Assembly: GCA_017303505.1 (NCBI GenBank) | Contig: JAFLCP010000013.1 | Coordinates: 2,446-66,445, forward strand | Reading direction: 5' to 3' | Source: Planctomycetota bacterium | GTDB taxonomy: Bacteria > Planctomycetota > Planctomycetia > Pirellulales > Pirellulaceae | DNA length: 64,000 nucleotides | Shown here: piece after piece, positions 2,339 through 18,100 of the stretch | How the letters are laid out: each line of letters begins with the position of its first letter | Position numbering within the stretch: the stretch's first letter is position 1 | Notes under the pieces: model-generated | Told to the model about the DNA's origin: nothing | Database searches by the model: none | What the model saw: the letters and a program-made list of their open reading frames with translations, nothing else | Program-made: the position numbers and the translations under genes

Positions 2339-2357
2339 ACAACGAAAGGAATCCACA

Positions 2358-3062
2358 ATGACGACCTCTGTTTGCTACAAGATCTATGGACACGACTTCC
2401 ACATCGAGCCCGAGAGTGTTCAGTTCGCCAACTGCGTTTTTCACGACGAGTACCGAATTAATGACCTGCGTCCCCACAATGTCCGAACGATCGTAGACGT
2501 CGGTTCGCACGTTGGAAGCTTTACTGTCATGGCCCACCACTATTGGCCCAACGCCAAGATCGTGGCAGTCGAACCCCATCCGCAGAGCTTTGAGCTGATG
2601 GCGAAGAACACGAGTCATATTCCTGAATCGCAGATTCTTCGGATCAACGCAGCGATCTCATCCAAGCCAGGAAAATGCCTGCTGTCGTTCCCTGTGTCGA
2701 ACAGTCGCGTTGCCGATTATGTTCCGGACGTTTGGGAATCGCTCGAGCCTCGATTCAGAGAGTTTGGCATCGAGGTTCCATCGCTGACCGTCGAGCAGTT
2801 CTGGACACAGGTAACGGACTTTGGGATCGACGAAGTCGACCTAATGAAACTCGATTGCGAGGGGGCCGAGTATCTAATCGTTTCTGAACTTGTCGCTTTG
2901 GGGTTGATGGACCGTATCGGCTGGATCCGTGGCGAGTGGCACTGCCGCAAGGACAATCTGCTGCTTGCCAATCTCCTCGGCCAGACGCACGTTTTCAATA
3001 TCGATCCCAACTACCCGCACTCGGTGGGGATGTTTGTAGCGCACCGAATCCTCAAATCGTAG
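2358..3062 (+). CDS. FkbM-family SAM-dependent methyltransferase
   Basis: AGGA RBS precedes the ATG at 2358. SAM-binding block IVDVGSHVGSFTVMAHHYWPNAKIVAVEPHPQSFELMAKN and a later KLDCEGAEY block are typical of the FkbM family. Confidence 0.8.
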   Translation: MTTSVCYKIYGHDFHIEPESVQFANCVFHDEYRINDLRPHNVRTIVDVGSHVGSFTVMAHHYWPNAKIVAVEPHPQSFELMAKNTSHIPESQILRINAAISSKPGKCLLSFPVSNSRVADYVPDVWESLEPRFREFGIEVPSLTVEQFWTQVTDFGIDEVDLMKLDCEGAEYLIVSELVALGLMDRIGWIRGEWHCRKDNLLLANLLGQTHVFNIDPNYPHSVGMFVAHRILKS

Positions 3063-3212
3063 GGTCAATAATCACAAAATCCCGAAATGATTGAGAAACA
3101 TAGTGTGCATCGTGGCGACAACAAACCCACTAACGCATGATGAACCGTCATCGCAACTAGATCAGTTTTCTTGTTTACACGTATAGGCGAGGAGGTTCAG
3201 CCAACATCGCAT

Positions 3213-5591
3213 TCAAGTTGCTGCCCCTTCAATTATGACTGTTACATTTCGCATACTTGACTCGATGGGGAATACCCATCCCTTCAATTCGCCAACGGTC
3301 ATCTTCTCAGGATCGAATCCACAGATGAGCATTATTGGGCAGTTCGTCGTGTAATTTGAAGATTGAGCGATGCCAGTGAGGGAAAGAACGTCCATTCCAC
3401 TCGGAACTGGGTTAGCAACTAAATGTGAATGCCACTCTCCGATGTAGACCATGGACGCGTCTTTCGACGACTCTGCATCAAGTTCCTGTTGGGCGAACTC
3501 GACGTCACGCTCGAATCGAGTTGCAGTTCGAACAGCTTTTGGACCAGGACCAGTTGCTCGAATAACAATCGCTGTGCCACCATCAATTTTTCCAATAAGA
3601 ATTCCTCCGGTTTCAGCAGTTGGAGATAATGCGACTTCGGTAAAGATGAAATCTCTTACGGTACTCGGTAGTGAAATACTACTTATTCTTGCGGGTCCGC
3701 ACGACGGGCATCCAGGCTGAGGTTCGAAGTTAGATTGAACGATGCTAAATGGAGAGTTGAGCTTTCCATCAAATTCTTCCATCGCCCGCAACGTCCACAC
3801 CAAGTGGTTCTTGAGCGCGGAGTTGGATTCCAAGAAGTCGATGGCAGTACGGGCGATATAGCCCGAGACAAAAACAAGATCTACAGCGCTACCTGCGATC
3901 ACTGGACGACCACACTCATGTAACAACGCGTCCTCAGTTCGCTCAGGCACCGATATCCAATCGGGCGTATCTTGGTATGCGATCATTCCCAAGCAAGTCT
4001 TGCACGCGTCAACGCCTGGACGCACAACGAATACTCGCCCCATTTGACCACGCCGCATTGATCTTCCGTATATGACAGGAATACCCATATCAACTGCGAG
4101 ATCGTTGAATCCTGACTCAGCTCCCTCATCGGCGATCGTGCATACAATTAGGTCAACGTCTGCAAACAGCTCACGAACTTCTTCCTGCGAAGGGCTGTTG
4201 ATGTACTTATCGAATACAGTTATCCGCGCATATGGATTTACGTCCCAAATTCTATTGGCAACCACTTCAGTCTTTGGAGAACCACTGTCTCGAAGTCCGC
4301 CGACGTGCCGTGCAACATTCCCTACGTGAAGAATGTCGCCGTCGCAAAGCTTAAATTGGGACACACCGGCTTGAGCAAGCATCTCACCCACCTTCGAACC
4401 AAGTGCTCCCAAACCGACGAGCGCAACTCTCTTTGAAGCAATCTGCGGTGCCACTACTGTCTCATTCCGCTTTCCGATTTCATTTGGAGTCATGCCGTGG
4501 ACCGGTACACATGCAACTCTGGCAGACTCAAAGCGAGCTCGTTTTTGATCGTCTGTTAAGACGGCGGGAAGTCCGTTGGATTTTTCAGCTCCAGCAAGAA
4601 CAACGACGAACAACCACTCTCGTTCTCCAAACCTTCCGGGATAGCAAAGGCCGATGTGGTGCATATTCTTCAATGTGAAATCAACTCCGATCGATTTGCT
4701 AACCATGGACCAAGCATCGCCATTAGGCGCTACTGAAGACAGTACTCCCAACAACCCTTTGCCATCACGAAAAACGCATGGCTCTTCGCCGAGTTCCCAC
4801 CAGTATCCGTTTACTCGCGCAATGTCACCAAAATCAATTGACTTGTGTTGTCGCTGTCTTTCTTGACATTCAACGAATTTTTTAGGTTCCCAGGCGTCGT
4901 TCGAAATCCAGGGGAAGATTGCTTGAAGATCTTCACGAGAATCGACGACCTGATAAACCGAAGTTAAAACTGTTGCAGATGTTGCGATCAAGGGTGGTTC
5001 TTCCTGACTTCGGCCGACGTAGAACCGATGAACATCTTTGACCGCGAAAAACTCACCATTCCCTTTTAGCAGTTCGGAGTAAAAGGTCTTACCCAAGAGT
5101 ATTCCAAAGCCGACCCGATAGAAATGTGCCTGAAGCTCAGTCTCTTTCGAATCTGGTGGCCAGCGGCCGGTAATATGTCCTAGGAACCACGCTTCAGCGC
5201 GGTTAAGAACGTCGATTACGCTGATCGCTTCTCCGCCTTCTGTTGTTCGAGTTTCGTATTGAAACAAACAAAGGGAGCCGGCAGGCATCTGGTGACGATG
5301 ATCGAACATTCTCGCTTTGGGGAAAGATATCGCGGCATTGTTACCATCGAAAGTTGGCATGCTTTCAAGGGGCGTGACGACTGGGAACGCATATGGCGAA
5401 TTACTGGGAAAATCCACCCGCACCGGAAATCTTTTGGCACCACCCTGTGGTCGAATAACAAGTTCCCCATATACGGAAACGTGTCCGTTCAAAAGGCTTC
5501 CTTCGTCGAGGACGAACTTTGGGTAGTTGCGTTTAAGTGCGGCAAGTTCTGCTGCGAACCACTGCGGGTGGCGAGTGTACCAAGCGTGCAT
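3213..5591 (-). CDS. E2(UBC-like)-E1(ThiF/MoeB-like)-JAB/MPN triple-fusion protein (Cap2+Cap3-like ubiquitin-type conjugation/deconjugation enzyme)
   Basis: aa 1-135: prokaryotic E2-like, YAFPVVTP ... HRHQMPAGSLCLF with candidate catalytic Cys108. aa ~386-635: E1 Rossmann fold, VALVGLGALGSKVGEMLAQAGV, plus paired CxxC motifs (DACKTC, GCPSCG). aa ~640-792: JAMM motif, AETGG ... EWHSHLVANPVPSGMD (HxHx7Sx2D). The ATG overlaps the upstream MBL stop (TAATG at 5589-5593). Confidence 0.85.
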   Translation of the reverse strand: MHAWYTRHPQWFAAELAALKRNYPKFVLDEGSLLNGHVSVYGELVIRPQGGAKRFPVRVDFPSNSPYAFPVVTPLESMPTFDGNNAAISFPKARMFDHRHQMPAGSLCLFQYETRTTEGGEAISVIDVLNRAEAWFLGHITGRWPPDSKETELQAHFYRVGFGILLGKTFYSELLKGNGEFFAVKDVHRFYVGRSQEEPPLIATSATVLTSVYQVVDSREDLQAIFPWISNDAWEPKKFVECQERQRQHKSIDFGDIARVNGYWWELGEEPCVFRDGKGLLGVLSSVAPNGDAWSMVSKSIGVDFTLKNMHHIGLCYPGRFGEREWLFVVVLAGAEKSNGLPAVLTDDQKRARFESARVACVPVHGMTPNEIGKRNETVVAPQIASKRVALVGLGALGSKVGEMLAQAGVSQFKLCDGDILHVGNVARHVGGLRDSGSPKTEVVANRIWDVNPYARITVFDKYINSPSQEEVRELFADVDLIVCTIADEGAESGFNDLAVDMGIPVIYGRSMRRGQMGRVFVVRPGVDACKTCLGMIAYQDTPDWISVPERTEDALLHECGRPVIAGSAVDLVFVSGYIARTAIDFLESNSALKNHLVWTLRAMEEFDGKLNSPFSIVQSNFEPQPGCPSCGPARISSISLPSTVRDFIFTEVALSPTAETGGILIGKIDGGTAIVIRATGPGPKAVRTATRFERDVEFAQQELDAESSKDASMVYIGEWHSHLVANPVPSGMDVLSLTGIAQSSNYTTNCPIMLICGFDPEKMTVGELKGWVFPIESSMRNVTVIIEGAAT

Positions 5592-6673
5592 TACTCTAGT
5601 CCCATAGGGCGTTGATCTATGCGTGTAGCGACAGTTGGTGCTGCACTTTGGATCACCCTCGCTGACGACGAGTTCTTCTTTTCTGATTTTTTGTCCTTCT
5701 TCTCGTTTTCGCGGCCGTACTCCTCAACAAGTTTGGTATCCAAGCGAACTTCATAGGTGCCATCGGTGAAAATGTCACAGATGACTGACTCACGATTAGC
5801 TCCGGTATGAATTACGTTATCGTCTCCAACATGATCTTCGTAGAGTTCCATTGCATCATCGTGTGGGTGGTCATGCCGACTTTCTGACTGTTTTGGAGCA
5901 GAAACAATAACGTACTCCGGATCAATTGTTTCAAGTGCTGTCATGTACGGGTCGTCGTCTTTGTCATGCTTGAAGAATGTTCGAGAACCATGGTGGGAAG
6001 CATTCAGAATCTTCGATGGCAATCGATCCTTGTGGTGATCGGTAATGTGATCTTCCCATGCAGTTCGATCAGCGTCACCTGTAAAGAGAATCCAGGTGTC
6101 GTCTTTTCCAATTCGCAAGACCGCGCAATGCTCGTGAATTCGCTTTCGACGTCCAGCAGCATCCTCGCCGGCAATATCCGTCTTCACATAGTCCGCAGGA
6201 GATAGGATGTAAATCTCCGCCTCGCCAAACGCTGTCGCACTGTCGCTTCCACGCATTTCGCTTGCTGCTTTGGAGCCGTGCTTTTTTTTGACTGCTTTTA
6301 TAACCTTCTGAAGCTCGTCGTAGGACGCTTTGTCGTCTTCGCCAGGTACGTGCCCGGATTCCCATACCTCATGGATATCTACTGATTCGTTCAGTTCTGT
6401 GATATCGTCAAGGTGGTCATTGTGCGGATGTGTATTGACGAACAGGTCCAGTCGCCCATCCTGGTCCGTGAGCAGATCTTTCATCAGCCTCGGGACGTTG
6501 ATTCCGTTGTGCCCTTCAGCATCCCGGTTTATGTCAATCAAAATTGTCTTGTAGGTCGTTCCGTCTTTTACCAAAACAACGGACGCATCACCTTGACCAA
6601 CGTAGAGCATACCTACACGAATCAACACGTCTGAATCAGTTGGCCAGAGAACATCTTGAGCAACGTTTGTCAT
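5591..6673 (-). CDS. metallo-beta-lactamase-fold hydrolase (ComEC/Rec2-type MBL), with a long charged C-terminal tail
   Basis: Motifs YVGQGDASVV, NTHPHNDHLDD (HxHxDH), FTGDAD and NASHHGS. GGAG RBS before the ATG at 6673. The last ~45 aa are K/E/S-rich and low-complexity, ending ...RIDQRPMGLE. Confidence 0.85.
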   Translation of the reverse strand: MTNVAQDVLWPTDSDVLIRVGMLYVGQGDASVVLVKDGTTYKTILIDINRDAEGHNGINVPRLMKDLLTDQDGRLDLFVNTHPHNDHLDDITELNESVDIHEVWESGHVPGEDDKASYDELQKVIKAVKKKHGSKAASEMRGSDSATAFGEAEIYILSPADYVKTDIAGEDAAGRRKRIHEHCAVLRIGKDDTWILFTGDADRTAWEDHITDHHKDRLPSKILNASHHGSRTFFKHDKDDDPYMTALETIDPEYVIVSAPKQSESRHDHPHDDAMELYEDHVGDDNVIHTGANRESVICDIFTDGTYEVRLDTKLVEEYGRENEKKDKKSEKKNSSSARVIQSAAPTVATRIDQRPMGLE

Positions 6674-6730: not shown

Positions 6731-9700
6731 CTAGGTCAATTTCAATCCATCACGAATTTTCGCAAGTACCGAGTTCATCTCCGTTACAATCTCTGCCGAT
6801 GGCTTTTGTTGTGCATCGCCGAAATCGATTTGGATACTAAAGGTCAGCGGAGCATCACACTTGTTCTTGATATCCAGCAAAGCGGCCACATACTCGCCAA
6901 GTTCTTGCAGCTCAAATGCCTCAAGCTCCGACACAGCCCTGACACCATGCTTTTCGCTGACGCTTCCGAGCCCGAGGCCGGCAGGTCCTTGGTAAGCACC
7001 AGCTGATGTCCCGCCATTGCTACCACCAGAACTATTGACGACCGTGAACTTGGCTTTTGATGCCATCGCGAACTCACATGGCCAATCGTTCGAATCGTCT
7101 GTCAACGACAGAAAACGACCTGTGATTGCCGCGCTAATGGCAGATGCGACATTCTTCCATGGCAGAGTAACTCCGCTTTGATGTGACAATGCTGTGGCAA
7201 TTGCTGCGGCGTTTGTTGTTTCGTTCTTCCATGCAGTTGGCAACGTGGCTGGCAAAAGCGCCGCAGGAGCAATGCTCTCGGGGGGCACTCGAAGCTTCGC
7301 CGCTGGTGTCAGAATCCCTGGTGGTACATCCTCGGCCCAAAGACTTGATGGCCCAGAGAGCAACCAAATGTACCCCGCAGCAACCGCATTTCGGATTGCC
7401 AACTCAATCGCATCTTGGCTTGTCTTAGGAACGTGCACTGATTCTTTGTACCCACCACGGTCAACTTCAACCACGTGCCTTCCGCTGAAGTAGTCGATAA
7501 CGGTTTGCGCCGTGATTTCCTCGCCAGCCCAAAGGCCAGGAAGCACGCTTGGGGCGAGAAGTTTTGGTAGCACTTCTGCAAGTTCGGCATACTCCGGTAA
7601 AACAAGCTCAAGCGATGGGTCAGCCAAAGCTGCATCATCCGGGCGATCTCGCCACCAGGTTCGATATGAACGATCGGGTCGCGTAACCTTCAAAACGAAT
7701 GAACCCTGCAAACAACCCTCGACTAGTGTTTCAACAATCGCCGAAGACTTGAGCATCTTCGGAAGATGCGGGAGTTGAGCAAATGCACCAGCTAGATCTT
7801 TGACGCGTCGACTCTTATCCCCGTCTTGCCACAAATTGTATGGACCATCAGGCAGCAGTGCGTCGGCAGTGATTGCTGTGTCTCGCACTCGAGAGCGTGA
7901 ATCATTCTTGATCGTTTCAAAATGGTTCTGATCGCTAATCGACAACTTAAAGGCATGAGCCTCGTCCTTTTCGGAGACGGTAACGACAATGCAATACGCC
8001 TGACGGATCGCATCGGGAATTCTCTCTCGAGCCTTATCGATGTTGATCTTGAGTGTTTGCATCCGAGCAACGTCGATTGGCCCCTTCTGCTGCTTTTCCT
8101 CGTCTGTGCTTGGGGTCAATTCATCGCGAACTAATTCCCATGCCATGGAATCTTGAATTCGGGCTTCGGCAGCGCTCAGGCCGTCGCGAGATGGTGTGAG
8201 AAGAATGACTGCGTTGCGATGAACTCTCGGTTTATTTGATCCCGAAGTCTCATCCAGAAATCGTTTCGCTTCACTGCTAGGTTTACCGGATTCTGAAGCA
8301 GCACTTGGGGGCATCACAGCGTAATGAAATAGCCCGTCATCCTCAATGTCCTTTGGTTTCGATGGAAGTGTATGGACTTTAACGCCCGCAGCGCTCGCAC
8401 CGGCAGTTAGCGTCTTGAGTTTTCCAACATCCTCGAGCAATCGAGCGCGAACGAGTTCAGTGTCAATCGTCGCGAATGCGGCCGACTGCATTTGAGTGAG
8501 GTTAGGCCGGTTACCCAGTTTCCAATCAGACGGAAGCTCGCCATCTGTTGTCGGAAGATTTTGATCGTCGAGCCAATAACTTTTCCGAGCCCAACGCATT
8601 AGCCCTTTCTCGTATTCGATTCTGTCTGGGCGACATGGACCGACTAACAACATCAAATCGCGAGTCTTTGCGCTGCGGCCAGTTGGCTGTGAGTGCAGGA
8701 AGGTAGCCATTGCAGCTTGTTCGATCTCTCGCAACTTTAGTCCAACCGACTCTTGCTCGACTTGTCGCGCACACTCCAGTTCGGTTTCTAAAATACCGGT
8801 CCAGCGTGTGGCTGCTCCGTCAGACACGATTGTGTCTGCGATTGAAACGAGTTCGCGTGCCGCCTCGGATAAGCCATGTGTCTTGGGTGCGCTAAGAAAG
8901 ACGGCAGGGCCGACTAGGGGGCTTTCGTCCCACTTAACCGCTTCCCGAAGCGCTAGCGCGAACGTTCGCAAAACACCACGAGTCTTTTGAAATCGCTCGA
9001 TCCCCGATGACCATTTGGAGTAAAACACCTCGGTCAATTCAGGATGAAACGGGTAACTCTTCTGGTAACGCTCTTCAGCAAGGGAGCCTTTCTTGGCAGT
9101 CTGTTCGTCTAAAGCATTGATACCCTTGAGCGCTGCGATAATGTGCGTTGGCCAGGTTCCTTTATGCTGAATTGAATCAGGATCAAATAGGCGGCGTCTA
9201 AGCACCTCGGCCACATCGTCTTTTTCAACTGGTTGGACCGCCTCTTCACGCTGCCGCTGGAAGATATCGTTCAAAGCCGAAACGATGTTTTTGCCAAGGG
9301 TGTCGGCCTGATCTTTGGGCTCGCTCGACAACAGTGAAGCCACGATGCAACAACGCTCAACCTTGGCTGCCGCCTGAGTGAGATACTGGAAGAATGACGT
9401 CAGGACATCCAGCCATCCTGGTTCTGCATGCACGCGAACTTTGGCGTAGAGCAGAACTTCATCAAGTAAAATCAACGTTCCCATGCCATCTTTGAGCGGA
9501 ATCGATAGCAAGTCGGACAGGACATTCTCCGCCGGTGGTGTATTTCGTTCTTCCGCCTTTTTGTCAGCGTGAAGAAGCTTCAATCCCTCATCCCCCGCGA
9601 TCTGGTAAGCCAATAAGCTCCAAGGTTCGCGCAATCGCCTTACCGAACCATCCGGCGAACGAACATCGCAGCCGGTTTCTACGTCGACTTTGTCGAAGCA

Positions 9701-10102
9701 AAGTGCGGCCACTCGAGTCTTGGGCGGGTCTTGGCCAATGTGTCCCACAAATTCTGCAACTGCGGGCACTTCGGGCAATTTTGCGGGATCATGAACCAAG
9801 TGCCGCATCGTGATCAACGTATGCGTCTTGCCTCCGCCATAGTTCAATTCAAGCTGCCGAACAGCTTTGTCGTTCTTGCCCGCTAGTCGTAGCACGACGT
9901 CGCGCACGAGCCCACGCAGATTATGCGTAGGGTAGGTAAGCGCAAAAAAATCGTCGGCGTTCTCGTAAATGGGACGTTTCCCATTCTGCATCATCACTTC
10001 GTACAGGTCCGCTGCAAATAAGTGCAGTGGTAAGTCACCCGTCTCTAAATCTTTTCGGATCTTGACTACTTCGTGCCAGGCTTTCCAAGGTTGCTTTGCC
10101 AT
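6731..10102 (-). CDS. DUF499-family P-loop ATPase
   Basis: The N-terminus (PWKAWHEVVKIRKDLETGDLPLHLFAADLYEV) is typical of DUF499. Walker A-like NYGGGKTHTL and Walker B LILLDEVLLY. 1123 aa. Confidence 0.8.
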   Translation of the reverse strand: MAKQPWKAWHEVVKIRKDLETGDLPLHLFAADLYEVMMQNGKRPIYENADDFFALTYPTHNLRGLVRDVVLRLAGKNDKAVRQLELNYGGGKTHTLITMRHLVHDPAKLPEVPAVAEFVGHIGQDPPKTRVAALCFDKVDVETGCDVRSPDGSVRRLREPWSLLAYQIAGDEGLKLLHADKKAEERNTPPAENVLSDLLSIPLKDGMGTLILLDEVLLYAKVRVHAEPGWLDVLTSFFQYLTQAAAKVERCCIVASLLSSEPKDQADTLGKNIVSALNDIFQRQREEAVQPVEKDDVAEVLRRRLFDPDSIQHKGTWPTHIIAALKGINALDEQTAKKGSLAEERYQKSYPFHPELTEVFYSKWSSGIERFQKTRGVLRTFALALREAVKWDESPLVGPAVFLSAPKTHGLSEAARELVSIADTIVSDGAATRWTGILETELECARQVEQESVGLKLREIEQAAMATFLHSQPTGRSAKTRDLMLLVGPCRPDRIEYEKGLMRWARKSYWLDDQNLPTTDGELPSDWKLGNRPNLTQMQSAAFATIDTELVRARLLEDVGKLKTLTAGASAAGVKVHTLPSKPKDIEDDGLFHYAVMPPSAASESGKPSSEAKRFLDETSGSNKPRVHRNAVILLTPSRDGLSAAEARIQDSMAWELVRDELTPSTDEEKQQKGPIDVARMQTLKINIDKARERIPDAIRQAYCIVVTVSEKDEAHAFKLSISDQNHFETIKNDSRSRVRDTAITADALLPDGPYNLWQDGDKSRRVKDLAGAFAQLPHLPKMLKSSAIVETLVEGCLQGSFVLKVTRPDRSYRTWWRDRPDDAALADPSLELVLPEYAELAEVLPKLLAPSVLPGLWAGEEITAQTVIDYFSGRHVVEVDRGGYKESVHVPKTSQDAIELAIRNAVAAGYIWLLSGPSSLWAEDVPPGILTPAAKLRVPPESIAPAALLPATLPTAWKNETTNAAAIATALSHQSGVTLPWKNVASAISAAITGRFLSLTDDSNDWPCEFAMASKAKFTVVNSSGGSNGGTSAGAYQGPAGLGLGSVSEKHGVRAVSELEAFELQELGEYVAALLDIKNKCDAPLTFSIQIDFGDAQQKPSAEIVTEMNSVLAKIRDGLKLT

Positions 10103-10191
10103 TGTTTTTTATCTCTTTCTCTTCGCTCATTTCGTTTGATTTGTATTATTCAGTGTTTGTCAGTTAATAGGAGCAGGATCGATTATCCAAC

Positions 10192-13100
10192 TCACTCATC
10201 CTCTTCGAACTCAAAAGCGAGGAGGGGGCCGCGATCGGCGATTGCCCCCTTAGCTCCGATGTGGTTACTAATGCTCTCCAGCAGCGAACGCTCACCATTC
10301 GTGGATAGCTCAATCAACGATTGCACTACACGTTTGAATAATTCATTTCGACGCAAGCCATGTTCATCGAGAAACTCATCAACCTTTTGAACGTCGCCAC
10401 TCTTCCATAGATGCATAACCCGATGGATGCGATCGATTAGTGGTACCGGGCGACCCTCGGGCGCCTCGATCCCCATACTGCGATGTGTCCGGCGATCCCA
10501 CGCTTTCAACTTCACCTTGTTTCCGCTTCCCGACGGTTCGGAATCGGGATCGTCATCGTCAGGATTGCTTTCGACGTCGTCATCGCCGCCGGAGGTAACA
10601 CCACCTCGAACTAGAATATCCCAGGTTCGTTCCAATTCAGTATCTGTCAGTCCGCAAGCAGTCGCGTAGAGGATGCAGGCGCCTATAGGAGCTTCGTCCA
10701 TACGGAAATCGTAGCGGTGGAGAAGGTAGTAGGCTGTTACTTCATCAAGTCGATCCGCGGCAACCGTTTCCTTTTCCTTTGCTCCAGTTAGCACTTGGCC
10801 GACTACGTAATCGACAACCATCCGGCGGACATGAGTTAGAAACTCGCCTACCGTCATGATTTCGCCATCGACTAAAGCTTTACGAACAACAGGGTGCTTG
10901 CTATACGCTTCCATCGCTGGCCCAGTTGCAGCCCACACAAAGTCGGGCCCGCGAATTCCTGCATCCCAAAATTCACGAAGCTGAGTCGCAATTTTGGTAC
11001 GCATCTCTTCGAGTACTTTGTTGTCCCAACCAGGCTTAGCTGATGTAGGACGTTTCTTGCACACGAGCCAGACTGATGAAGACAATGCAGCTGCTGATTG
11101 TGACCGAGTACGAGCAACTCGTTCAGTTTGTATGGGCCAACTGCCATCAACAACGAAACCGGCACGAATCACAGCCGAAACGAGTGTTTCCCATGCATCA
11201 GGATGCTTATGCGCAAATACCAACACTAAGCGTCCATTGCTATTTAACGCTTGCCCGCATGCAACAAAAGCTTTTGCCATGCCGTTTTCATAAGCGTCTT
11301 TTGAGTCCTTCTTATTTCCGCCGAATCGACTCGCATCATCAACCAATTCACCATCGTTCGTTTCACTGTTCCATTTTGGAGCTAAAGGCTGATCTGAATC
11401 GTAGCTGCCGTCCTGGATAATTCCATGCAGCGCTCTTCGGTGCCAAGTATAGAAGAAATCCATAAGCACCGAATATCCAATCGCATCGTAGTATGGTGGA
11501 TCAGTTATGATTACGTCATACAGCCCTGTCCCAGGTGGGTTTATGGCGGAACCACGCAAAACAGAAGGTGGTTCTGCTTGAAGCGTGGCATTGCATGTAT
11601 GCTCGGTCGCACGACAGATCCATTCCACGGCGCCCCGATAGTTGCCGCTAGTTTCACCCAGCGGATTGCCTTCACAGTAGTCCCATATAAATGGTAACGC
11701 CCAACGGACAAACGTATGCCCTAAGAACTCTCCGCCGGAAGTCCACGTAACACATCGGCTGGAGAAATCTGCGAGGCGACCGACTGCCAGCGTGAGTAAT
11801 CCAACTAGCCCCTCGGTCCATTCAGCGTCGTAACTATACTTTCTGCCTTCAATGGAAATCTCACGGGTGGACAGCACTAATCTTCCAAGTGCAGCCATCT
11901 GCCTCGAGTTATAAAGTTTGTGAAACTCATTGATCCCATAAAGAGAGCACCAGGTATTTCCCTTGGCATCCAGGATCATTGGCTCATGGAGCATGCCAAA
12001 TGGAATTTTTGCAAAAATATTGTCTACCTCGCATTCAATTGATGATGAGGCAGCTAGGTCAATATCTGTCGGCTTTCTGTACTCTTTCCCATTTCCACCA
12101 TCGACTACTACAGCGGTTAGAGTTTGGCCAATACGATCATTCATTCCCTCAATTTGTATGTCGGCCTTGGTCATGAAAACGCCACATGCTGGACATTTAC
12201 CGCCGGACTTTGTTACAGTTCCCTCACCAACACGTTTGTCATGTTCTCTCTTTTGTGCTGCGTTGCCTCCCTTTGCCGGTTCATTTTGATTAATGTTGAA
12301 GCCAACAACTCTTGTTGCTTTGTCAATCGTTAGTTCGAGCTTGATGCGTTTAGTCTCGGATTTAGCCAGCCAAAGTGTTTTGATCAAGGGAAATACGACG
12401 CGGCAATTCTTGCAAGCAACAGTTCTGGCCCAAAGAAAAGCGACAGTTGGCTTAACAACCCATCGAGGGTTACCTTTAATTGCAAGATAATCATCAGAAA
12501 ACTCATCATTTAGAACTTCTATATCTGGCGTGCCGTCTTCCTTTAACTTGAGCAATTTTGTTGGTTGATACTCGTAAGCGACGCTATTCTTCTTCAACGG
12601 CTCAAAATCTGCGTATGTCGGGTAGTATTTTGCTAGGTCGCGACGCGTTTGTTGAAGCACCCACTGCCCCCAAGCGCGAACATGCCAAGCAAGATCTGCC
12701 TGCAATTCGCCTTCATCCTCAGCACCGTCGTTTACGAATCCAAAGGTCTGTTGCGGTTGGCTGCTATCATTCCACTTTTTTCGCTTCTTCAATCGCGCGT
12801 GCAACTTCGCCAGTGCCGCCCGAACCTCCGTCTTGGAATATCCCTTGGCCTTTTTGAAAAAGTCCGTCATGAACTCATCATTGCGCAAGATAAATTCCGG
12901 TAGCGGCCGTGTTTGCCCTGCTAGCTTTTGTGGATACTCAAGAGTGCATTTCAGGATAAACCAAGCCACTGGGTTGATATCCACGGCAGTTGTTTCGCAG
13001 CCCAATCGCATCGCTTCCAGTGGGATTGCTCCACCACCAGCGAATGGATCGAGTACCTTGGGAGCTCGCCCTCCATAAGCCTTACGAATTTCGTCACGAA

Positions 13101-13452
13101 ACCACTGCAGCGTCTCCTCGTTTTCTGTTTCACGGCCCCAGTGCAAAATGCCGCCTTCGGTCTCCTTCTTCACGCGTTCGACGATTTGACCATTGGGCAT
13201 TTTCTTGCGTTCAATCTTCTTGACGACCTTGCCTGCGATCTTCTCGCACAGCTCACGTCGCCCTTCCGCCGTTCCAGGATCAGGCAGCAGCGTCGCAATC
13301 AGCGCCGCGCGACAAGCGGCCAATGGCCGACGTGCGGGCCAGATGTGAAGTGTCGAGATATGACCATGCCGCACGTTCTTCTCATGCACTGAGTCAAGGG
13401 ACGTTGCTTCCAATGGGAAAGCGTGTTCGATCAATCGCGGGAAATCACTCAT
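10192..13452 (-). CDS. DUF1156-family N6-adenine DNA methyltransferase with internal Zn-ribbon
   Basis: DUF1156 signature IEHAFPLEATSLDSVHEKNVRHGHISTLHIWPARRPLAACRA. SAM motif I VLDPFAGGGAIPLEA, motif IV IITDPPYYD, and Zn-ribbon GGKCPACG. Confidence 0.9.
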   Translation of the reverse strand: MSDFPRLIEHAFPLEATSLDSVHEKNVRHGHISTLHIWPARRPLAACRAALIATLLPDPGTAEGRRELCEKIAGKVVKKIERKKMPNGQIVERVKKETEGGILHWGRETENEETLQWFRDEIRKAYGGRAPKVLDPFAGGGAIPLEAMRLGCETTAVDINPVAWFILKCTLEYPQKLAGQTRPLPEFILRNDEFMTDFFKKAKGYSKTEVRAALAKLHARLKKRKKWNDSSQPQQTFGFVNDGAEDEGELQADLAWHVRAWGQWVLQQTRRDLAKYYPTYADFEPLKKNSVAYEYQPTKLLKLKEDGTPDIEVLNDEFSDDYLAIKGNPRWVVKPTVAFLWARTVACKNCRVVFPLIKTLWLAKSETKRIKLELTIDKATRVVGFNINQNEPAKGGNAAQKREHDKRVGEGTVTKSGGKCPACGVFMTKADIQIEGMNDRIGQTLTAVVVDGGNGKEYRKPTDIDLAASSSIECEVDNIFAKIPFGMLHEPMILDAKGNTWCSLYGINEFHKLYNSRQMAALGRLVLSTREISIEGRKYSYDAEWTEGLVGLLTLAVGRLADFSSRCVTWTSGGEFLGHTFVRWALPFIWDYCEGNPLGETSGNYRGAVEWICRATEHTCNATLQAEPPSVLRGSAINPPGTGLYDVIITDPPYYDAIGYSVLMDFFYTWHRRALHGIIQDGSYDSDQPLAPKWNSETNDGELVDDASRFGGNKKDSKDAYENGMAKAFVACGQALNSNGRLVLVFAHKHPDAWETLVSAVIRAGFVVDGSWPIQTERVARTRSQSAAALSSSVWLVCKKRPTSAKPGWDNKVLEEMRTKIATQLREFWDAGIRGPDFVWAATGPAMEAYSKHPVVRKALVDGEIMTVGEFLTHVRRMVVDYVVGQVLTGAKEKETVAADRLDEVTAYYLLHRYDFRMDEAPIGACILYATACGLTDTELERTWDILVRGGVTSGGDDDVESNPDDDDPDSEPSGSGNKVKLKAWDRRTHRSMGIEAPEGRPVPLIDRIHRVMHLWKSGDVQKVDEFLDEHGLRRNELFKRVVQSLIELSTNGERSLLESISNHIGAKGAIADRGPLLAFEFEEDE

Positions 13453-14167
13453 TATCTTTTTCTTCCTTGGAAGGTGCTTCTTCGTTGGCGTTGGGCTTAG
13501 TGGCAGTTACTGCAGGTGCATTCTGCGTTGGCATTGGAAGCTGAAGAAATTGCACCAGTAGTTCACGGGCATAGTGCTTTCCAAACCGATGCATTCGCAG
13601 AGCCGCGAGCACTGCTCCGAAGCCAAGTAGCCCAATCGCACTCCAGTTCGTAGGCACCTTGAAGATCGCGACAATCGCGACGAACACTAGCGAAACGCAC
13701 AGGCCGCGGTTTAGACCATAGTTGCCATTGAAGATGTCGACCCTGGACGCACGGCTCTGGGCAGCAACGGCGGCGTAGATTTGACGCGTAATTCCATACC
13801 ACTCTTTTCTGCCAATTGCAGAAAGATCTGCGGGTACGCTCAAACCTAATTTTGTTTGTAATTGGCTGATAATCGCTGTGCGCTGCGAGTCATGGATCAG
13901 CTTCAATTTGTTCGAGCGAATCCAGTCGCTCGGCATTCCGTACCAATACCACCAAGCCGTTTCCAGGAAACCTCCGAGGGTTTGCACTAAATGTCCCGCA
14001 GCATATGACAAGATCAAGAACACACCCAAGCTGCCGAGTGACATGTCCTTCAACGGCACCGTCTGCGCTATCAGAGTCTCTGCTTGAGCTAATCCGAAAA
14101 TCAGAATCGCACCGGGCATCACGATTCCAGCAAACTCATAAAAGTCGAAATTTTTGTCTGCCTTCAT
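13445..14167 (-). CDS. four-TM membrane protein of unknown function
   Basis: Two N-terminal and two C-terminal hydrophobic helices flank a ~85-aa soluble segment. ATGA overlap with the upstream MBL gene and an 8-nt overlap with the downstream methyltransferase. Confidence 0.6.
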   Translation of the reverse strand: MKADKNFDFYEFAGIVMPGAILIFGLAQAETLIAQTVPLKDMSLGSLGVFLILSYAAGHLVQTLGGFLETAWWYWYGMPSDWIRSNKLKLIHDSQRTAIISQLQTKLGLSVPADLSAIGRKEWYGITRQIYAAVAAQSRASRVDIFNGNYGLNRGLCVSLVFVAIVAIFKVPTNWSAIGLLGFGAVLAALRMHRFGKHYARELLVQFLQLPMPTQNAPAVTATKPNANEEAPSKEEKDNE

Positions 14168-15150
14168 CGATCGTACTCCGAGTCAATGGTTGGTTGGCTG
14201 TATGCAGGGATGTTTACTACGATGTCCCCTTTCCATCGAGTGGACCAAACGTTGTTGCTATACGCTCGGTACTTGTTAGATGCGTCAGTAGATGGTTTCT
14301 TGCCCACAGAGACGATCGTGTATTCCGGCTTCATCGCGGCGACCGCAGGTTGATAGTAACCTGAGTCACGACCATGGTGACTGGCTTTCAAAATGTCACA
14401 TTTCAAATTGCTGCCATAGTAGTCATGAATGGACTCCCAGACTTCAGCCTCGGCATCGCCGCCAAGTATGATCCGCGTGCCATTTGCCACCAGATAGAGA
14501 ACATAGCTGAGGTTATTGTGATTTTTCGATGTGTTAGCCGCTGTATTGGTCTCTATTGTCGGCGCGAGGATATGAATGCCGTCTCCTCCATCAGTCAAAT
14601 CGGCGTTTTGGTTGAAATATGGTCTATGCATGCCCCGATAGTATCGCAACACCGTCACGTCGCCTGGACTGCGCCATTCGCCGTTGCGCAACCGTTGGTA
14701 GCGTCCCCAGTCGATTCGATCGTTGTCTGTTTTGAAGTCTGGGACTTTGGAGTGCCAAGTATCCCAGACGTTGCGGATCGCGATGCCCTCGCGCCACAAT
14801 GCGTTGAGCCCACGCATGTGGTCAAGGTCCGGATGAGATTGGATGTACCGAAAAATCTCTCGACCAGGAAAGTGCTGCTTAAAGTACTCCACCGGATTGG
14901 TCAGTTGAACGTTGTAACCGGCAGTTTTGAGAACACCTTCAATCAACCGACCTGACAGTTTTATACCGAGGGCCTTTGCGAGCGCGAGCTGTGCGTTATC
15001 GTACGACGACGGGGTCTCATCCGCTATTTCTTGTGCGGATGTGTCGTCGAGGCTGTCTCCGTTGTTGATGTCGATCATCGTAATGCGACCACTATCATGC
15101 TCGATGATGGTGCAGTCACCGTGGCCAACATTTAAGAAGTGAATCTTCAT
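14164..15150 (-). CDS. metallo-beta-lactamase-fold hydrolase (second, divergent ComEC-type MBL paralog)
   Basis: Motifs FLNVGHGDCTIIEH, QSHPDLDHMRG (variant HxDxDH), LGGDAE and KASHHGRDSGY. Alignable by eye with the 5591-6673 product. ATGA overlaps on both sides. Confidence 0.85.
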   Translation of the reverse strand: MKIHFLNVGHGDCTIIEHDSGRITMIDINNGDSLDDTSAQEIADETPSSYDNAQLALAKALGIKLSGRLIEGVLKTAGYNVQLTNPVEYFKQHFPGREIFRYIQSHPDLDHMRGLNALWREGIAIRNVWDTWHSKVPDFKTDNDRIDWGRYQRLRNGEWRSPGDVTVLRYYRGMHRPYFNQNADLTDGGDGIHILAPTIETNTAANTSKNHNNLSYVLYLVANGTRIILGGDAEAEVWESIHDYYGSNLKCDILKASHHGRDSGYYQPAVAAMKPEYTIVSVGKKPSTDASNKYRAYSNNVWSTRWKGDIVVNIPAYSQPTIDSEYDR

Positions 15151-18100
15151 TCCTTCCCTCCTAACCGTTCTGCCCGGAGGACTTCTGCTCTCTTGATCAA
15201 CACACTTCCCTTTGCACTCGCTAGTAGGTTCCCGAATGGATCTTGAACTCGGGCAAGTTTTGGCGAGGGCGTTGCGCAGTCGTACACTACGTAGAGCCAG
15301 TACTGATCACGAAGGTTGGCTGCCCGAGCCCATTCGTTTGACGAGACTTCAACGTCGCCCGTACTTGCGCGACCTTTCACTTCAATGGCTCGTCGACCTC
15401 GTGGATCGGTAGATGGGTAGATCGCTAACAGGTCGAAGCCAGGATTGTCAGTTAAGCCTGCCGCTCGGGCGAGTTCGGGTGTAGACACATCCTTAACCTC
15501 CGCGCCTTGAGCTTCTTCGAAAGCTCTGGCGACATCCATGGCCACGCGTTCGACGTCGGCGTCGTGTCTGGCTAAGTCATCTGGATCGGACGAGGGGACA
15601 ATCAGGGCATGAGCGACGAAGACCACCTTGCCTGGTCTGATCAACTCGGGTTCTCGATGGATTGTATCGATCGCTAATTGTCGTCGTCCGGACAGGGATT
15701 TTTGTTGATTTCGTATATCAGTGAGAGCCTTGAGTGCACCAGGATTTCCAGCTCGCGCTTTCTCGGACAGCCTGTTTCGAGCTGCTGCCAACTCACTCTC
15801 TTGAAAGCTGAATCCACGCCGAATGAATTGCTCGCGCTCTGCTAAAGTAGCAAGCATCTGATTGCGACGCCCCATAGCAATGTCGCGGGAAACGCGTTCT
15901 GTTAGATAGGCCTCAGCCAGCTCACACATCTTGCTCGCTTCTGCGGCCAAACGCTGGGCGGTAGCTGGCAGTCCTTTACTTGGACCAAGAAGCATTAAGT
16001 GCTCAACTGGACATAGTTCAGTGTCAGCGCCTTCGTACTGGCGAATGCCAATCAATCGACACTCCAATCGTTCCGGCGTGGCCAAATCGGGAAAGTCTTT
16101 GTCGGCAGCGCGATCAACGGTCGCCAACGCCACATGGAACAGATAGGGTTTGCTGGCTGTAGGATCGACAAACACAGCGCCGTTTAGCGCATCTTGGCCA
16201 ATCCGCTCGGATACTAAATCGCGAAAAGCCTCAAAGACAGGTTCGCCTGGATGCACCCACACCGCAGCTCCGCGTTCTTGTGGGCGAACGACAGAGAGGC
16301 ATTGTCTTTGTCGAGCGTTATAAAGCTCCAGTGTTGGCAGGATCGGATCAATCGAGCCGGGGTGGAGGGGAATGAAGGAAAAGCACTTCTGCATGTCGCC
16401 TTCCATCCCAATTCCCGCGGGGGGGCCAGCGTTCTCTAGATACTGGCGAACGTATCCTGGCAATAGTCGACGATATGCTTCTTGCATCAAGTCGGCACGC
16501 AGTCTCGGCAGTTGCTTCTTGACGTCTCCGCCATCGCCGTAAAGCATTCGTTCTTGAGCTGCGAGTGCTTGAACCTGTTCAGCGGTTAGCTTGCCAGACA
16601 ACTCACTGATCGCTTGGTCCGCACCATCGACTACCGCTTGCTCCATGTAAGTGCTCAACGATACGCCTTCGAACAATCGCCCGATCGAATCAAAGACTTT
16701 CTCGCTGCCAAGCGAATCGCGAATGATCTCAAGTTTCGCAAGCAATGTTTCGATCACCTTGCCTTCGCGAGTGTCGGGCGAAACCAAGTTAATTATGTGA
16801 ACTGGGTCGTGCTTCTGTCCGTAGCGATGAATTCGGCCCATGCGCTGTTCGAGACGAGCCGGGTTCCAAGGGACATCAAAGTTAATCATGATCCAGCAAA
16901 ACTGGAGGTTGATGCCTTCGGCCGCCGCATCCGTGCAAATCATGAATCGCGCTCCGTCCGCTTGGGTATGATCGCGTCGAAAGCGCTCAACTGCTTCTTG
17001 CCTGGCCTTGTAGTCCATTCCGCCATGGATTTGCGCAATACGACCTGTATGGCCCAATCCGCCTAAGCGGCCAACTAGATAGTCGAGCGTATCTCGATGC
17101 TCGGTGAAGACGATTAGCTTTTCGCCAGCGAACCTAGGGCTATTCAGGATCTCTTGGAGTTTTTCGAACTTCGATTCGCTACCATCCGCTTGAACGCGGC
17201 GGGCTAGTTGGAGCAGCACCGCAACCTGTTCTCGTTCAACGTATAGATCCGTCAGCGATGTCGCGATCACGCCTGAAAGGAGCTTTCCTTCGGCCACTTC
17301 GCTTTCTTCACGGTCACCAATCGCCCGTTCTTCATCAGCGGTTTTGGTGTCAAAGACGTCTTCTTGATCCGAAGCCAGGCGACGCTGCAAAAGATTGATC
17401 TCTTCGCCAGTCAAATTATTGTCCTGGACTCGCTGGATCAACTCGTCTAGCTTTTCAATGCGTCGCTCGAATGATCGGGTTAGTGCGTATGTCGAGCTTG
17501 CAAGGCGACGCTGCATAACGCTCATTGCCAATCGAGCCGCCGATCGATTGAGCAACTTGGCACGATTGTAAACGTGCCTCATGTAATCGGTCGTTTCGTT
17601 GTACAGGACCTGTTCACTGAAAGGTCCTTGGCTGAGGCGGAATCCAAGCGTGTCGGAAATGCGCTTGGGATAGAGCGGCTCTCCCGACAATAGCACCATC
17701 TCCTCCTTGGTGCGTCGGATGAAGTGGGACTGGCGACGCTCGACAGGATAGTTTTCGAACGCCTCGGGCGTTGAGAGCACATCCGGCTCGAGTAACCGCC
17801 AAAGACCGTAGTAAGGATAAGGCTTGCCTTGGTGCGGCGTCGCGGTTAGCAACAGCAAGTGGTGCGGAGACCAATTCAGCTGCCAAGCTGGATCAAGTCC
17901 TCGGACGCCAGCGAGTGATTCAGCTAACTCATATCGGCCCGTCTTTCGGACGCGTAGGTCGCTACTCCGATTAACGGAGAGCTTGTGTGCTTCATCGAAG
18001 ACAACCAGGTCGTATGGTTCTACATCAGGTTCCTGCAATCGAGCGAACATTTTAGGGCCAGCAAGCGTGTCTACGCTTACGACGATTCGATCACTGCCTG

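What the first reader, a model, noticed from the sequence alone, without database searches (positions are those of the whole stretch)
5591..5728. Only the E1/E2-adjacent MBL has a long disordered K/E/S-rich tail ending PMG-LE
MBL1 ends with ...EEYGRENEKKDKKSEKKNSSSARVIQSAAPTVATRIDQRPMGLE. That is about 45 residues of low-complexity linker plus a short terminal peptide with a Gly two residues from the end. Its paralog MBL2 (14164-15150) ends right after the fold (...QPTIDSEYDR).

Ubl precursors, and CD-NTases in type II CBASS, use flexible C-termini. These are trimmed by the JAB peptidase to expose a terminal Gly/Ala for E1 adenylation. The tail is the sort of feature expected if MBL1 is the conjugation substrate.
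Basis: inference. Interest (0 to 1): 0.6.

Follow-up and report, generated by a model that had tools for sequence, protein, structure and literature searches.

The report
Glycine-tailed hydrolase for ubiquitin-like conjugation
A nuclease-like enzyme in a phage-defence gene cluster carries a floppy tail with a strictly conserved glycine that the ubiquitin-type enzyme encoded next door most likely uses to attach the nuclease itself to other molecules; this is a diverged copy of an already named anti-phage system (6A-MBL), and the idea is already the field's working model.

Summary
MBL1 (5591-6673, minus strand, 360 aa) ends ...TRIDQRPMGLE. AlphaFold2 gives a confident MBL fold for residues 1-322 and a disordered tail. 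The paralog MBL2 has no tail.

Of 184 distinct homolog C-termini, 116 carry T-[RK]-[ILV]-D-x-[RK]-P-M-G followed by 0-7 unconserved residues. P, M and G are invariant in 46 distinct loci, and the Pro, Gly and Asp codons of the motif vary synonymously. Tail type tracks the neighbouring enzyme:
- PMG tails sit before an E2-E1-JAB fusion (48 of 49 loci).
- Tails ending aromatic-Gly/Ala sit before a split E2E1 gene plus a separate JAB gene.
- MBL paralogs not next to an E1 have no tail.

The fusion's best structural match is CBASS Cap2 (7TO3, E = 1e-25). All E2, E1 and JAMM catalytic residues are invariant.

The most likely mechanism is that JAB trims Leu-Glu, E1 adenylates Gly358, and E2 transfers the whole enzyme to a target.

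This matches operon type 6a of Iyer et al. 2006, the "6A-MBL" anti-phage system. Both proteins fall far below NCBIfam's 6A-MBL cut-offs. The same genome also holds a canonical 6A-MBL system whose MBL ends ...PRAG. I rate it a diverged variant of a known kind, of modest interest.

The parts
5717..6673 (-). MBL1 catalytic domain (residues 1-319). It is a ComEC-like metallo-beta-lactamase fold with an intact HxHxDH motif (H82, H84, D86, H87) and further invariant His/Asp residues (H180, D200, D202, H227, H228, H269).
   Evidence: AF2 pLDDT is above 90. The best Foldseek match is the ComEC beta-lactamase-like domain 9ic4, E = 1.4e-18. A profile search hits ComEC chains. Invariant residues come from the 95-sequence alignment.
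5627..5716 (-). Disordered low-complexity linker (residues 320-349, RENEKKDKKSEKKNSSSARVIQSAAPTVA). Its length and composition are not conserved in the family.
   Evidence: pLDDT falls to 61 for residues 321-330 and below 50 from residue 334. These alignment columns are variable and gapped.
5600..5626 (-). Conserved terminal motif T350-R-I-D-Q-R-P-M-G358. Gly358 is the proposed residue for adenylation and conjugation.
   Evidence: 116 of 184 distinct homolog C-termini carry [RKQS]-P-M-[GA]. P, M and G are invariant in 46 distinct loci, with 4 Pro codons and 4 Gly codons in use.
5594..5599 (-). Two unconserved trailing residues, Leu359-Glu360. They are proposed to be removed by the JAB domain. 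They also space the Gly codon (GGA) 8 nt upstream of the fusion gene's ATG.
   Evidence: In the family 0-7 trailing residues follow the Gly, with 2 as the mode, and 16 different residues occupy the first position.
5589..5593 (-). TAATG overlap between the MBL1 stop and the E2-E1-JAB start (translational coupling).
   Evidence: Read directly from the sequence. The same -1 or -4 overlaps occur in most related loci.
3213..5591 (-). E2-E1-JAB triple fusion (792 aa).
- E2-like N-terminal domain: R99-H100-Q101...C108.
- ThiF-type E1, about residues 371-635: G393xG395AxG398, D417, R428, K440, zinc CxxC pairs C530/C533 and C628/C631, and invariant E559-C560.
- JAMM peptidase, about residues 640-792: E660, H721xH723, S731xxD734.
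   Evidence: Pfam ThiF 7e-27 and Prok-JAB 5e-08. PADLOC E1-E2 2e-31 and JAB 7e-25. Invariant residues come from 42-51 fusion sequences. AF2 mean pLDDT is 88. The best Foldseek match is Cap2 7TO3_A, E = 1.4e-25 over 669 columns.
6731..18719 (-). Upstream genes of the same operon. They form an Hma helicase-methylase-ATPase system: HmaA 15147-18719, HmaB 10192-13452, HmaC 6731-10102. Between them sit the tail-less MBL2 (14164-15150) and a Csx27-like 4-TM protein (13445-14167).
   Evidence: PADLOC HmaA 2.5e-150, HmaB 2e-109, HmaC 1.8e-69, Csx27 2e-05. The 57-nt gap between HmaC and MBL1 has an RBS and no promoter-like or terminator-like site.

Best explanation
MBL1 is a ComEC-like metallo-beta-lactamase-fold phosphodiesterase, probably a nuclease. 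Its own C-terminus acts as the 'ubiquitin tail' for the Cap2/Cap3-like E2-E1-JAB protein encoded immediately downstream.

What the data show:
- A folded MBL domain is followed by a disordered tail of about 40 residues.
- The tail ends in the family-conserved motif T-R-I-D-x-R-P-M-G plus two unconserved residues.
- The tail motif co-varies with the type of E1/E2/JAB neighbour.
- The E2 cysteine, the E1 adenylation site, the candidate E1 cysteine and the JAMM site are all intact.

What is inferred, by analogy with type II CBASS (Cap2 conjugates the CD-NTase C-terminus and Cap3 reverses it) and with Bil (the DUB pre-processes the Ubl):
1. The JAB domain removes Leu359-Glu360 and exposes Gly358.
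2. The E1 domain adenylates the Gly358 carboxylate.
3. MBL1 passes as a thioester from the E1 cysteine (probably C560) to the E2 cysteine (C108).
4. MBL1 is then ligated to a lysine, or another nucleophile, of an unknown target. This primes or localises the nuclease during phage infection.
5. JAB also reverses the conjugation.

The pair is a diverged form of the 6A-MBL anti-phage system. Here it is appended to an Hma defence operon and is probably co-transcribed with it.
For: - Tail and motif.
- Disorder.
- Selection acts at the protein level, because the Pro, Gly and Asp codons of the motif vary synonymously.
- Linkage: 48 of 49 PMG-type loci have the E2-E1-JAB fusion directly downstream, usually overlapping by 1 or 4 nt. 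The 11 loci whose tails end in aromatic-Gly/Ala or another small G/A residue have a split E2E1 gene (about 580-695 aa) plus a separate JAB gene (about 160-280 aa).
- The motif spans phyla: Planctomycetota, Bacteroidota, Bacillota (Paenibacillus plasmid...LDRKPMGGQ), Acidobacteriota, Gemmatimonadota, Chloroflexota and others.
- MBL paralogs not next to an E1 have no tail.
- The fusion is Cap2-like in fold (7TO3, E = 1.4e-25) and its catalytic residues are invariant.
- The same genome's canonical 6A-MBL enzyme also ends in a free glycine (...SAPRAG*) directly before its cap2_3 gene.
- Literature: the operon was described as type 6a (PMC1779556). 6A-MBL is listed among known anti-phage systems (10.1101/2025.09.30.679545; PMC13276650). 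MBL pathways are grouped with type II CBASS as conjugating their own enzyme (PMC11601596). DUB pre-processing to expose the terminal Gly is shown for BilA (PMC10557695).
Against: - There is no biochemical or genetic evidence for this clade. All support is comparative.
- The primary 6A-MBL paper (van den Berg 2024, PMID 39094584) is not in the library. I could not check what was actually shown for MBL conjugation.
- Five E2-only loci (no E1, no JAB) keep a tailed MBL with other end motifs. A tail can therefore exist without adenylation, and it may primarily be a docking peptide.
- The trailing residues may simply reflect translational-coupling geometry rather than regulated pro-enzyme capping.
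- Both proteins score far below NCBIfam's 6A-MBL cut-offs.
- The target of conjugation is unknown.
Confidence: 0.75

Rival explanations
1. The tail is a non-covalent docking or regulatory peptide. It binds the E2-like domain or the E1 pocket, or it auto-inhibits the MBL active site. It is never adenylated or conjugated. The E2-E1-JAB enzyme acts on some other substrate, or only as a scaffold.
For: E2-only loci (L064, L066, L067, L025, and the Runella plasmid L085) lack E1 and JAB. They still keep a tailed MBL next to a protein with an E2-like H...C motif. No conjugation data are available for this clade.
Against: The E1 adenylation residues, the candidate E1 cysteine, the E2 cysteine and the JAMM residues are all invariant across 42-51 fusions. 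A pure scaffold would not preserve all of them. The invariant residue is a Gly or Ala at or near the extreme C-terminus, which is what E1 chemistry requires. In split-type systems 34 of 44 tails end exactly at G/A. No other candidate substrate gene (a beta-grasp protein or a CD-NTase) lies in the operon.
Confidence: 0.12
2. MBL1 is the acceptor rather than the donor. Its lysine-rich linker (6 Lys in 40 residues) is the site to which something else is ligated, for example another MBL1 molecule or an unlinked small protein.
For: The window's linker is K-rich. Conjugation targets in type II CBASS are still described as unknown (PMC11601596).
Against: The Lys content of the linker is not conserved. 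Relatives are mostly D/E/G-rich, and several have no Lys in the linker. The conserved part is the terminal PMG, not the lysines. This reading does not exclude MBL1 also being the donor, for example in self-conjugation.
Confidence: 0.08
3. The apparent conservation of the tail end is a nucleotide-level constraint, such as a ribosome-binding site or start context for the overlapping downstream gene. It is not a protein feature.
For: The Gly codon is GGR in 36 of 46 loci. In phyla that use Shine-Dalgarno sites it lies 6-9 nt upstream of the fusion's start codon, where it can form part of an SD-like GGAG or GGGG.
Against: Pro uses all four codons, Gly uses four and Asp uses both. Conservation extends 9 residues (27 nt) upstream. 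Bacteroidota largely lack SD-led initiation (established knowledge), yet they keep K-P-M-G exactly, with GGA-TAATG junctions. Coupling geometry can explain the trailing residues but not the motif.
Confidence: 0.02

Closest known systems
6A-MBL anti-phage system (operon type 6a of Iyer, Burroughs & Aravind 2006, PMC1779556; named and tested in Pseudomonas aeruginosa by van den Berg et al. 2024, PMID 39094584; NCBIfam NF058523 cap2_3 and NF058524 MBL enzyme)
   Same: It has the same two-gene core: an MBL-fold protein directly followed by an E2-E1-JAB triple fusion, in a defence context. The MBL carries a flexible tail with a terminal or near-terminal glycine. The canonical copy in this same genome ends ...SAPRAG*.
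   Different: - Both proteins are far below the NCBIfam equivalog cut-offs: 59 versus 220 bits, and 135 versus 320 bits.
- MBL1 is not detectably similar to the genome's canonical 6A-MBL enzyme by BLASTP (E = 0.45).
- MBL1 is ComEC-like, with HxHxDH (THPHNDH) where the canonical enzyme has THLDQDH.
- The motif is RPMG plus trailing residues, where the canonical copy in this genome (L086) ends in PRAG.
- Most relatives add a Csx27-like membrane protein.
- Here the pair is appended to an Hma operon and has no membrane-protein gene of its own.
Type II CBASS Cap2 (E2-E1) and Cap3 (JAB) acting on the CD-NTase C-terminus (Ledvina 2023; Jenson 2023, PMC10097602; PDB 7TO3/7TQD)
   Same: The fusion's best structural match is Cap2. 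PADLOC's E1-E2 and JAB models, which I take to be its CBASS Cap2/Cap3 models, are the best hits. As in CBASS, there is no beta-grasp protein, and the partner enzyme supplies a disordered C-terminal tail ending in Gly/Ala.
   Different: The conjugated enzyme is an MBL hydrolase, not a nucleotide cyclase. No cyclic-nucleotide effector is present. JAB is fused to E2-E1 in one chain. Three quarters of PMG-type tails need trimming before the Gly is terminal.
Bil (BilABCD) ubiquitin-like pathway (Chambers 2024, PMC10557695)
   Same: [quoted passage not shown] This is the step proposed here for Leu359-Glu360.
   Different: Bil uses a true beta-grasp Ubl and separate, canonical-type E1 and E2 proteins. 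Here there is no beta-grasp domain.
ComEC C-terminal beta-lactamase-like nuclease domain (PDB 9ic4; TIGR00361)
   Same: It is the best fold and profile match for the MBL1 core. MBL1 has the same HxHxDH metal site.
   Different: MBL1 is a soluble stand-alone protein without the ComEC channel domain. It carries the conjugation tail.

Membership tests
6A-MBL / Iyer type 6a operon | An MBL-fold gene adjacent to a gene for an E2 + E1 + JAB triple-module protein, in that domain order | tested here: met
   The two genes share a TAATG overlap.
6A-MBL / Iyer type 6a operon | The fusion protein reaches the NCBIfam NF058523 (6A-MBL_cap2_3) equivalog cut-off of 320 bits | tested here: not met
   The score is 134.6 bits. 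It is the best-scoring family, but the match covers model positions 262-665 only. The genome's other copy on contig C131 scores 675 bits.
6A-MBL / Iyer type 6a operon | The MBL protein reaches the NCBIfam NF058524 (6A-MBL_enzyme) equivalog cut-off of 220 bits | tested here: not met
   The score is 59.1 bits. The tail-less MBL2 scores 49.1, so this hit does not discriminate. The C131 MBL scores 415 bits.
6A-MBL / Iyer type 6a operon | Anti-phage activity | not testable with these tools
   Only the genomic context supports it: the same operon as Hma, with a further candidate defence cassette at 21980-27927.
Type II CBASS | Cap2-like E2-E1 and Cap3-like JAB enzymes | tested here: met
   Foldseek 7TO3_A E = 1.4e-25. 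PADLOC E1-E2 2.4e-31 and JAB 7e-25. NCBIfam Cap3 1.1e-11, which is below its cut-off.
Type II CBASS | A CD-NTase (cGAS/DncV-like cyclase) and a cyclic-nucleotide-activated effector in the operon | tested here: not met
   No such domain appears in any of the seven operon proteins. No other non-overlapping ORF of 60 aa or more lies between HmaC and the operon end.
Ubiquitin-like modifiers (beta-grasp Ubl precursors) | A beta-grasp fold preceding the C-terminal Gly | tested here: not met
   The AF2 model is an MBL alpha-beta/beta-alpha sandwich followed by a disordered tail, with no beta-grasp.
Ubiquitin-like modifiers (beta-grasp Ubl precursors) | A flexible C-terminal tail with a conserved Gly that is terminal or is exposed by a peptidase | tested here: met
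   Conservation of the Gly is shown. Its exposure by JAB is inferred.
ComEC-type MBL nucleases | An MBL fold with the HxHxDH motif and downstream His/Asp metal ligands | tested here: met
   H82, H84, D86, H87, H180, D200, D202, H227, H228 and H269 are invariant in 95 sequences. The best Foldseek hit is 9ic4.
ComEC-type MBL nucleases | DNA nuclease activity | not testable with these tools
   Inferred from fold only. The next-best folds are a phosphorylcholine esterase (Pce) and RNase J, so the substrate is uncertain.

The most novel reading that the evidence does not exclude
Tail motif and E1 lineage form a private recognition code, and one genome here runs two orthogonal 'enzyme-as-ubiquitin' systems. 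One is RPMG-LE with a ComEC-like MBL wired into an Hma operon. The other is PRAG with the canonical 6A-MBL enzyme next to a patatin-like protein. In the PMG clade most enzymes would be made as capped pro-forms, and the cis-fused JAB must trim them before they can be conjugated. In this Pirellulaceae lineage the module has lost its usual Csx27-like membrane partner and serves as an effector arm of Hma.
Probability: 0.25. Interest if true: 0.55.

Novelty: new variant of a known kind. Interest (0 to 1): 0.35.

Why it matters
If confirmed, this clade would extend the principle that an enzyme can act as its own ubiquitin from nucleotide cyclases (type II CBASS) to a second, sequence-unrelated group of MBL hydrolases. 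It offers a short portable tag (T-R-I-D-x-R-P-M-G) and a single-chain E2-E1-JAB ligase/peptidase that could be studied biochemically. The co-variation of tail motif with E1 architecture, and the presence of two systems with different tails in one genome, give a direct way to ask how bacterial E1 enzymes pick their substrates. The link to an Hma operon may also help explain how that poorly understood defence system kills or restricts. For the specialist field, however, the central idea is already assumed.

Tried and rejected
- Nucleotide-level constraint as the cause of motif conservation. I rejected this from codon usage. Coupling geometry may still explain the trailing residues.
- Reading the primary 6A-MBL paper (PMID 39094584) and the published Ledvina paper (PMC10292035). 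Neither is held. The Ledvina preprint mentions families 6a-6e but not the MBL.
- Pfam on MBL1 and MBL2. Neither reached any family at E <= 0.01. PADLOC gives only weak LmuA, PDC-M48B and RTasMBL hits.
- BLASTP of MBL1 against the genome's canonical 6A-MBL enzyme. There is no significant similarity, so I did not file MBL1 under the NCBIfam equivalog.
- Looking for a hidden ubiquitin-like or CD-NTase gene in the operon. None was found.
- A complex prediction of tail plus fusion was not possible, because the structure tool takes single native sequences only.
- Loci that first seemed to lack an E1 (L014, L027 and others) turned out, by phmmer, to have diverged split E2E1 + JAB genes or fragmented E1 genes. 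Only L025, L064, L066 and L067 truly lack E1 and JAB.
Full report
**1. The observation**

The minus-strand ORF at 5591-6673 encodes a 360-aa protein ending ...EEYGRENEKKDKKSEKKNSSSARVIQSAAPTVATRIDQRPMGLE.
- Its TAA stop (5591-5593) overlaps the ATG of a 792-aa ORF (3213-5591) as TAATG.
- In alignments of 27 and 95 homologs the last invariant fold residue is Tyr319.
- AlphaFold2 on the 95-sequence alignment gives mean pLDDT 90, with more than 90 for most of residues 1-322 and less than 50 for residues 334-360. The tail is about 40 residues and predicted disordered.
- The paralog MBL2 (14164-15150) is 27% identical over the core and stops right after the fold.
- The genome contains no other relative of MBL1.

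**2. What the genes are**

- MBL1 has no Pfam hit at E <= 0.01.
- Its profile hits ComEC beta-lactamase-like domains. Its model's best structural match is the ComEC MBL domain 9ic4 (E = 1.4e-18). A phosphorylcholine esterase and RNase J-type nucleases follow.
- The HxHxDH motif and the other metal ligands are invariant.
- The downstream protein has ThiF and Prok-JAB domains. Its best PADLOC hits are the E1-E2 models (2e-31) and the JAB models (7e-25).
- Across 42-51 orthologous fusions the following are invariant:
  - the E2-type R-H-Q...C108 motif
  - the E1 glycine-rich loop, plus D417, R428 and K440
  - two CxxC zinc pairs
  - E559-C560
  - the JAMM signature E660...H721xH723...S731xxD734
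- Its AF2 model (pLDDT 88) matches Enterobacter cloacae Cap2 (7TO3_A) at E = 1.4e-25 over 669 columns. That is ten orders of magnitude better than any other E1.

Upstream in the same orientation lies an Hma system (HmaA, HmaB, HmaC). MBL2 and a Csx27-like 4-TM protein are inserted in it. The 57-nt HmaC-MBL1 spacer has an RBS and no promoter-like or terminator-like site.

**3.

A protein search returned 969 homologs. I read the tails of the best 120. A scan of one genome per species returned 80 loci with flanks. I called ORFs in every locus and searched them with the window's proteins.

Tail classes among 184 distinct C-termini:

| Tail end | Count | Residues after the G/A |
|---|---|---|
| [RKQS]-P-M-[GA] | 116 | 0 in 29, 1 in 12, 2 in 47, 3 in 18, 4-7 in 10 |
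| aromatic-Gly/Ala | 44 | 0 in 34 |

- The first trailing residue after PMG is any of 16 amino acids.
- The fuller motif is T-[RK]-[ILV]-D-x-[RK]-P-M-G.
- In 46 loci with distinct DNA, P, M and G are invariant. Pro uses four codons, Gly four and Asp two. Selection therefore acts on the protein.

Tail class against the neighbouring genes:

| Tail class | Neighbour | Loci |
|---|---|---|
| PMG or close variants | E2-E1-JAB fusion directly downstream, usually overlapping by 1 or 4 nt | 48 of 49 |
| aromatic-G/A or another small G/A residue | split E2E1 gene (580-695 aa; ThiF plus a weak Prok-E2_A hit) and separate JAB gene (160-280 aa) | 11, plus 2 with a fragmented E1 |

- The motif crosses phyla. 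Examples are a Paenibacillus polymyxa plasmid (...TQLDRKPMGGQ) and a Hymenobacter plasmid (...TRLDDKPMG).
- MBL paralogs that are not next to an E1 have no linker and no such end. These are the window's MBL2, six second MBL genes in the fetched loci, Runella MBL #2, and the outgroups L079 and L080.

**4. A complication**

Four genome loci (L025, L064, L066, L067) and the Runella slithyformis plasmid pRUNSL03 lack both E1 and JAB.
- Each encodes an MBL1 homolog (38-49% identity).
- Next to it lies a 215-290-aa protein with an E2-like H...C motif, often with a SEC-C zinc motif.
- A Csx27-like membrane protein follows.
- These MBLs keep an acidic linker and a short end motif...PKPYFNGDVS...RPYYPYAS...KIYCPFSD...RPRPYYCG...KPWQRG.

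A tail can therefore persist without an adenylating enzyme. This keeps alive the rival reading that the tail is first of all a docking peptide. The PMG motif itself is confined to E1-containing systems.

**5. The trailing residues**

- Bacteroidota mostly end exactly at Gly with GGA-TAATG junctions.
- In Planctomycetota, Acidobacteriota and other phyla, two extra codons place the Gly codon (GGR) 6-9 nt upstream of the fusion's start. There it can form part of a Shine-Dalgarno-like element.
- PMG tails with a cis-fused JAB carry trailing residues far more often than tails in split-JAB systems: 87 of 116 against 10 of 44. Fisher's test gives p = 2e-9, but the sequences are not phylogenetically independent.

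My reading is an inference. The trailing residues are tolerated by-products of translational coupling, and the JAB domain must remove them. This resembles the way the Bil DUB pre-processes BilA (PMC10557695).

**6. What is known**

- It is now called 6A-MBL. It is listed among the known jumbo-phage defence systems considered in a P. aeruginosa analysis (10.1101/2025.09.30.679545). A 2026 review attributes its validation to van den Berg et al. 2024 (PMC13276650).
I could not read the primary 6A-MBL paper. I therefore cannot say whether MBL conjugation has been shown directly.

**7. Membership**

NCBIfam has equivalog models for both proteins.
- The window's fusion scores 134.6 bits against a cut-off of 320.
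- MBL1 scores 59.1 bits against a cut-off of 220.
- The tail-less MBL2 scores 49.1 bits on the same model.

Searching the genome with the cap2_3 model uncovered a canonical 6A-MBL system on another contig (C131, locus L086).
- Its fusion scores 675 bits.
- Its MBL enzyme scores 415 bits and ends ...VSAPRAG*.
- A protein with a patatin-like GGGxR motif (recognised by eye; no NCBIfam hit) follows.

MBL1 and that enzyme are not detectably similar by BLASTP (E = 0.45), and their metal motifs differ (THPHNDH versus THLDQDH).

The window's pair fits the architecture-defined type 6a and works like type II CBASS. It is not a member of the curated 6A-MBL equivalog families. I class it as a diverged variant of a known kind.

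**8. Mechanism and confidence**

The proposed steps are:
1. The JAB domain trims Leu359-Glu360.
2. E1 adenylates Gly358.
3. MBL1 passes as a thioester from the E1 cysteine (probably C560, which lies between the two zinc CxxC pairs) to the E2 cysteine C108.
4. MBL1 is ligated to an unknown target.
5. JAB reverses the conjugation.

What is shown: tail disorder, motif conservation, co-variation with the E1/E2/JAB architecture, intact catalytic residues, and Cap2-like fold. What is inferred: every chemical step, the nuclease activity and the defence role.

I put 0.75 on 'the tail is the conjugation handle'. The main rival, at 0.12, is a non-covalent docking or regulatory peptide.

**9. Earlier notes of this scan**

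Notes on other genomes reached the same classification and mentioned a PRAG motif. I treated them as leads. They prompted the NCBIfam scan. I verified the PRAG end independently on this genome's own second system, the motif-to-architecture co-variation, and the frequent Csx27-like third gene.

Noticed in passing
L086 (own genome, contig C131:4810-9789): MBL 186-1319, cap2_3 1273-3576, patatin-like 3587-4894: The same genome carries a second, canonical 6A-MBL system. Its MBL enzyme scores 415 bits on NF058524 and ends ...VSAPRAG*. Its fusion scores 675 bits on NF058523. A 435-aa protein with a patatin-like GGGxR motif follows; this was recognised by eye and it has no NCBIfam hit. One genome therefore holds two enzyme-as-ubiquitin systems with different tail motifs.
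   Followed up: partly
57 of 79 related loci, e.g. L002:5210-5998, L036:9474-10166, L083:6406-7083; window 13445-14167: In most MBL1-family loci a Csx27-like 4-TM protein (190-260 aa, homologous to the window's 13445-14167 protein) is a third conserved gene. It lies either just upstream of the MBL or just downstream of the fusion. In the window and in L001 the MBL1/fusion pair has no membrane-protein gene of its own. The only one nearby is paired with MBL2 inside Hma.
   Followed up: partly
L064:5974-8393, L066:5968-8300, L067:2402-4840, L025:5323-7768, L085 (Runella pRUNSL03):3995-6446: This is an E2-only variant. It has a tailed MBL1 homolog, then a 215-290-aa protein with an E2-like H...C motif (a SEC-C zinc motif in two of them), then the Csx27-like TM protein. 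It has no E1 and no JAB. The tails end ...PYFNGDVS, ...YYPYAS, ...YCPFSD, ...PYYCG and ...KPWQRG. How such a system could work without adenylation is unexplained.
   Followed up: partly
L005, L010, L015, L018, L021, L023, L027, L044, L054, L071, L072: In a sister clade of the MBL the tail ends exactly at aromatic-Gly/Ala or at ...GRSA/...TA. Examples are RPFA, PRKYG, GGRYA, GRWG and PRKFG. It is followed by split Cap2-like (580-695 aa) and Cap3-like (160-280 aa) genes, not by the triple fusion.
   Followed up: yes
Junctions in L028-L078 versus L001-L012; window 5589-5602: Bacteroidota copies end at Gly with GGA-TAATG. Copies from other phyla insert about two codons, so that the Gly codon GGR sits 6-9 nt upstream of the fusion's start, like a Shine-Dalgarno element. 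The number of trailing residues seems to be set by translational coupling.
   Followed up: partly
L001:3-9491; L069:1273-6315; L012:12372-13050; L009:6613-9618: The Hma-MBL1-fusion arrangement recurs in a Pirellulaceae MAG (L001: HmaB, HmaC, MBL, fusion). In a MAG labelled Pirellula staleyi (L069), HmaC appears as two ORFs and only a 104-aa MBL1 remnant follows it. Two more distant loci have an HmaA/DrmD-like helicase downstream of the fusion.
   Followed up: no
L016:2099-3493, L068:6615-7112, L073:5956-6549, L026:2719-4547, L014:7062-8033: Several loci show frameshifted or fragmented MBL or E1 genes. These could be pseudogenes or long-read assembly errors, and some are from nanopore-type MAGs. 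I excluded them from the tail statistics where the MBL was truncated.
   Followed up: no
L085:6459-7490 and 8200-8981 (Runella plasmid); L046:3797-4564, L055:10151-11026, L058:3802-4686: Many loci hold additional tail-less MBL2-like paralogs next to the tailed MBL system. This mirrors the MBL1/MBL2 pair of the window.
   Followed up: no
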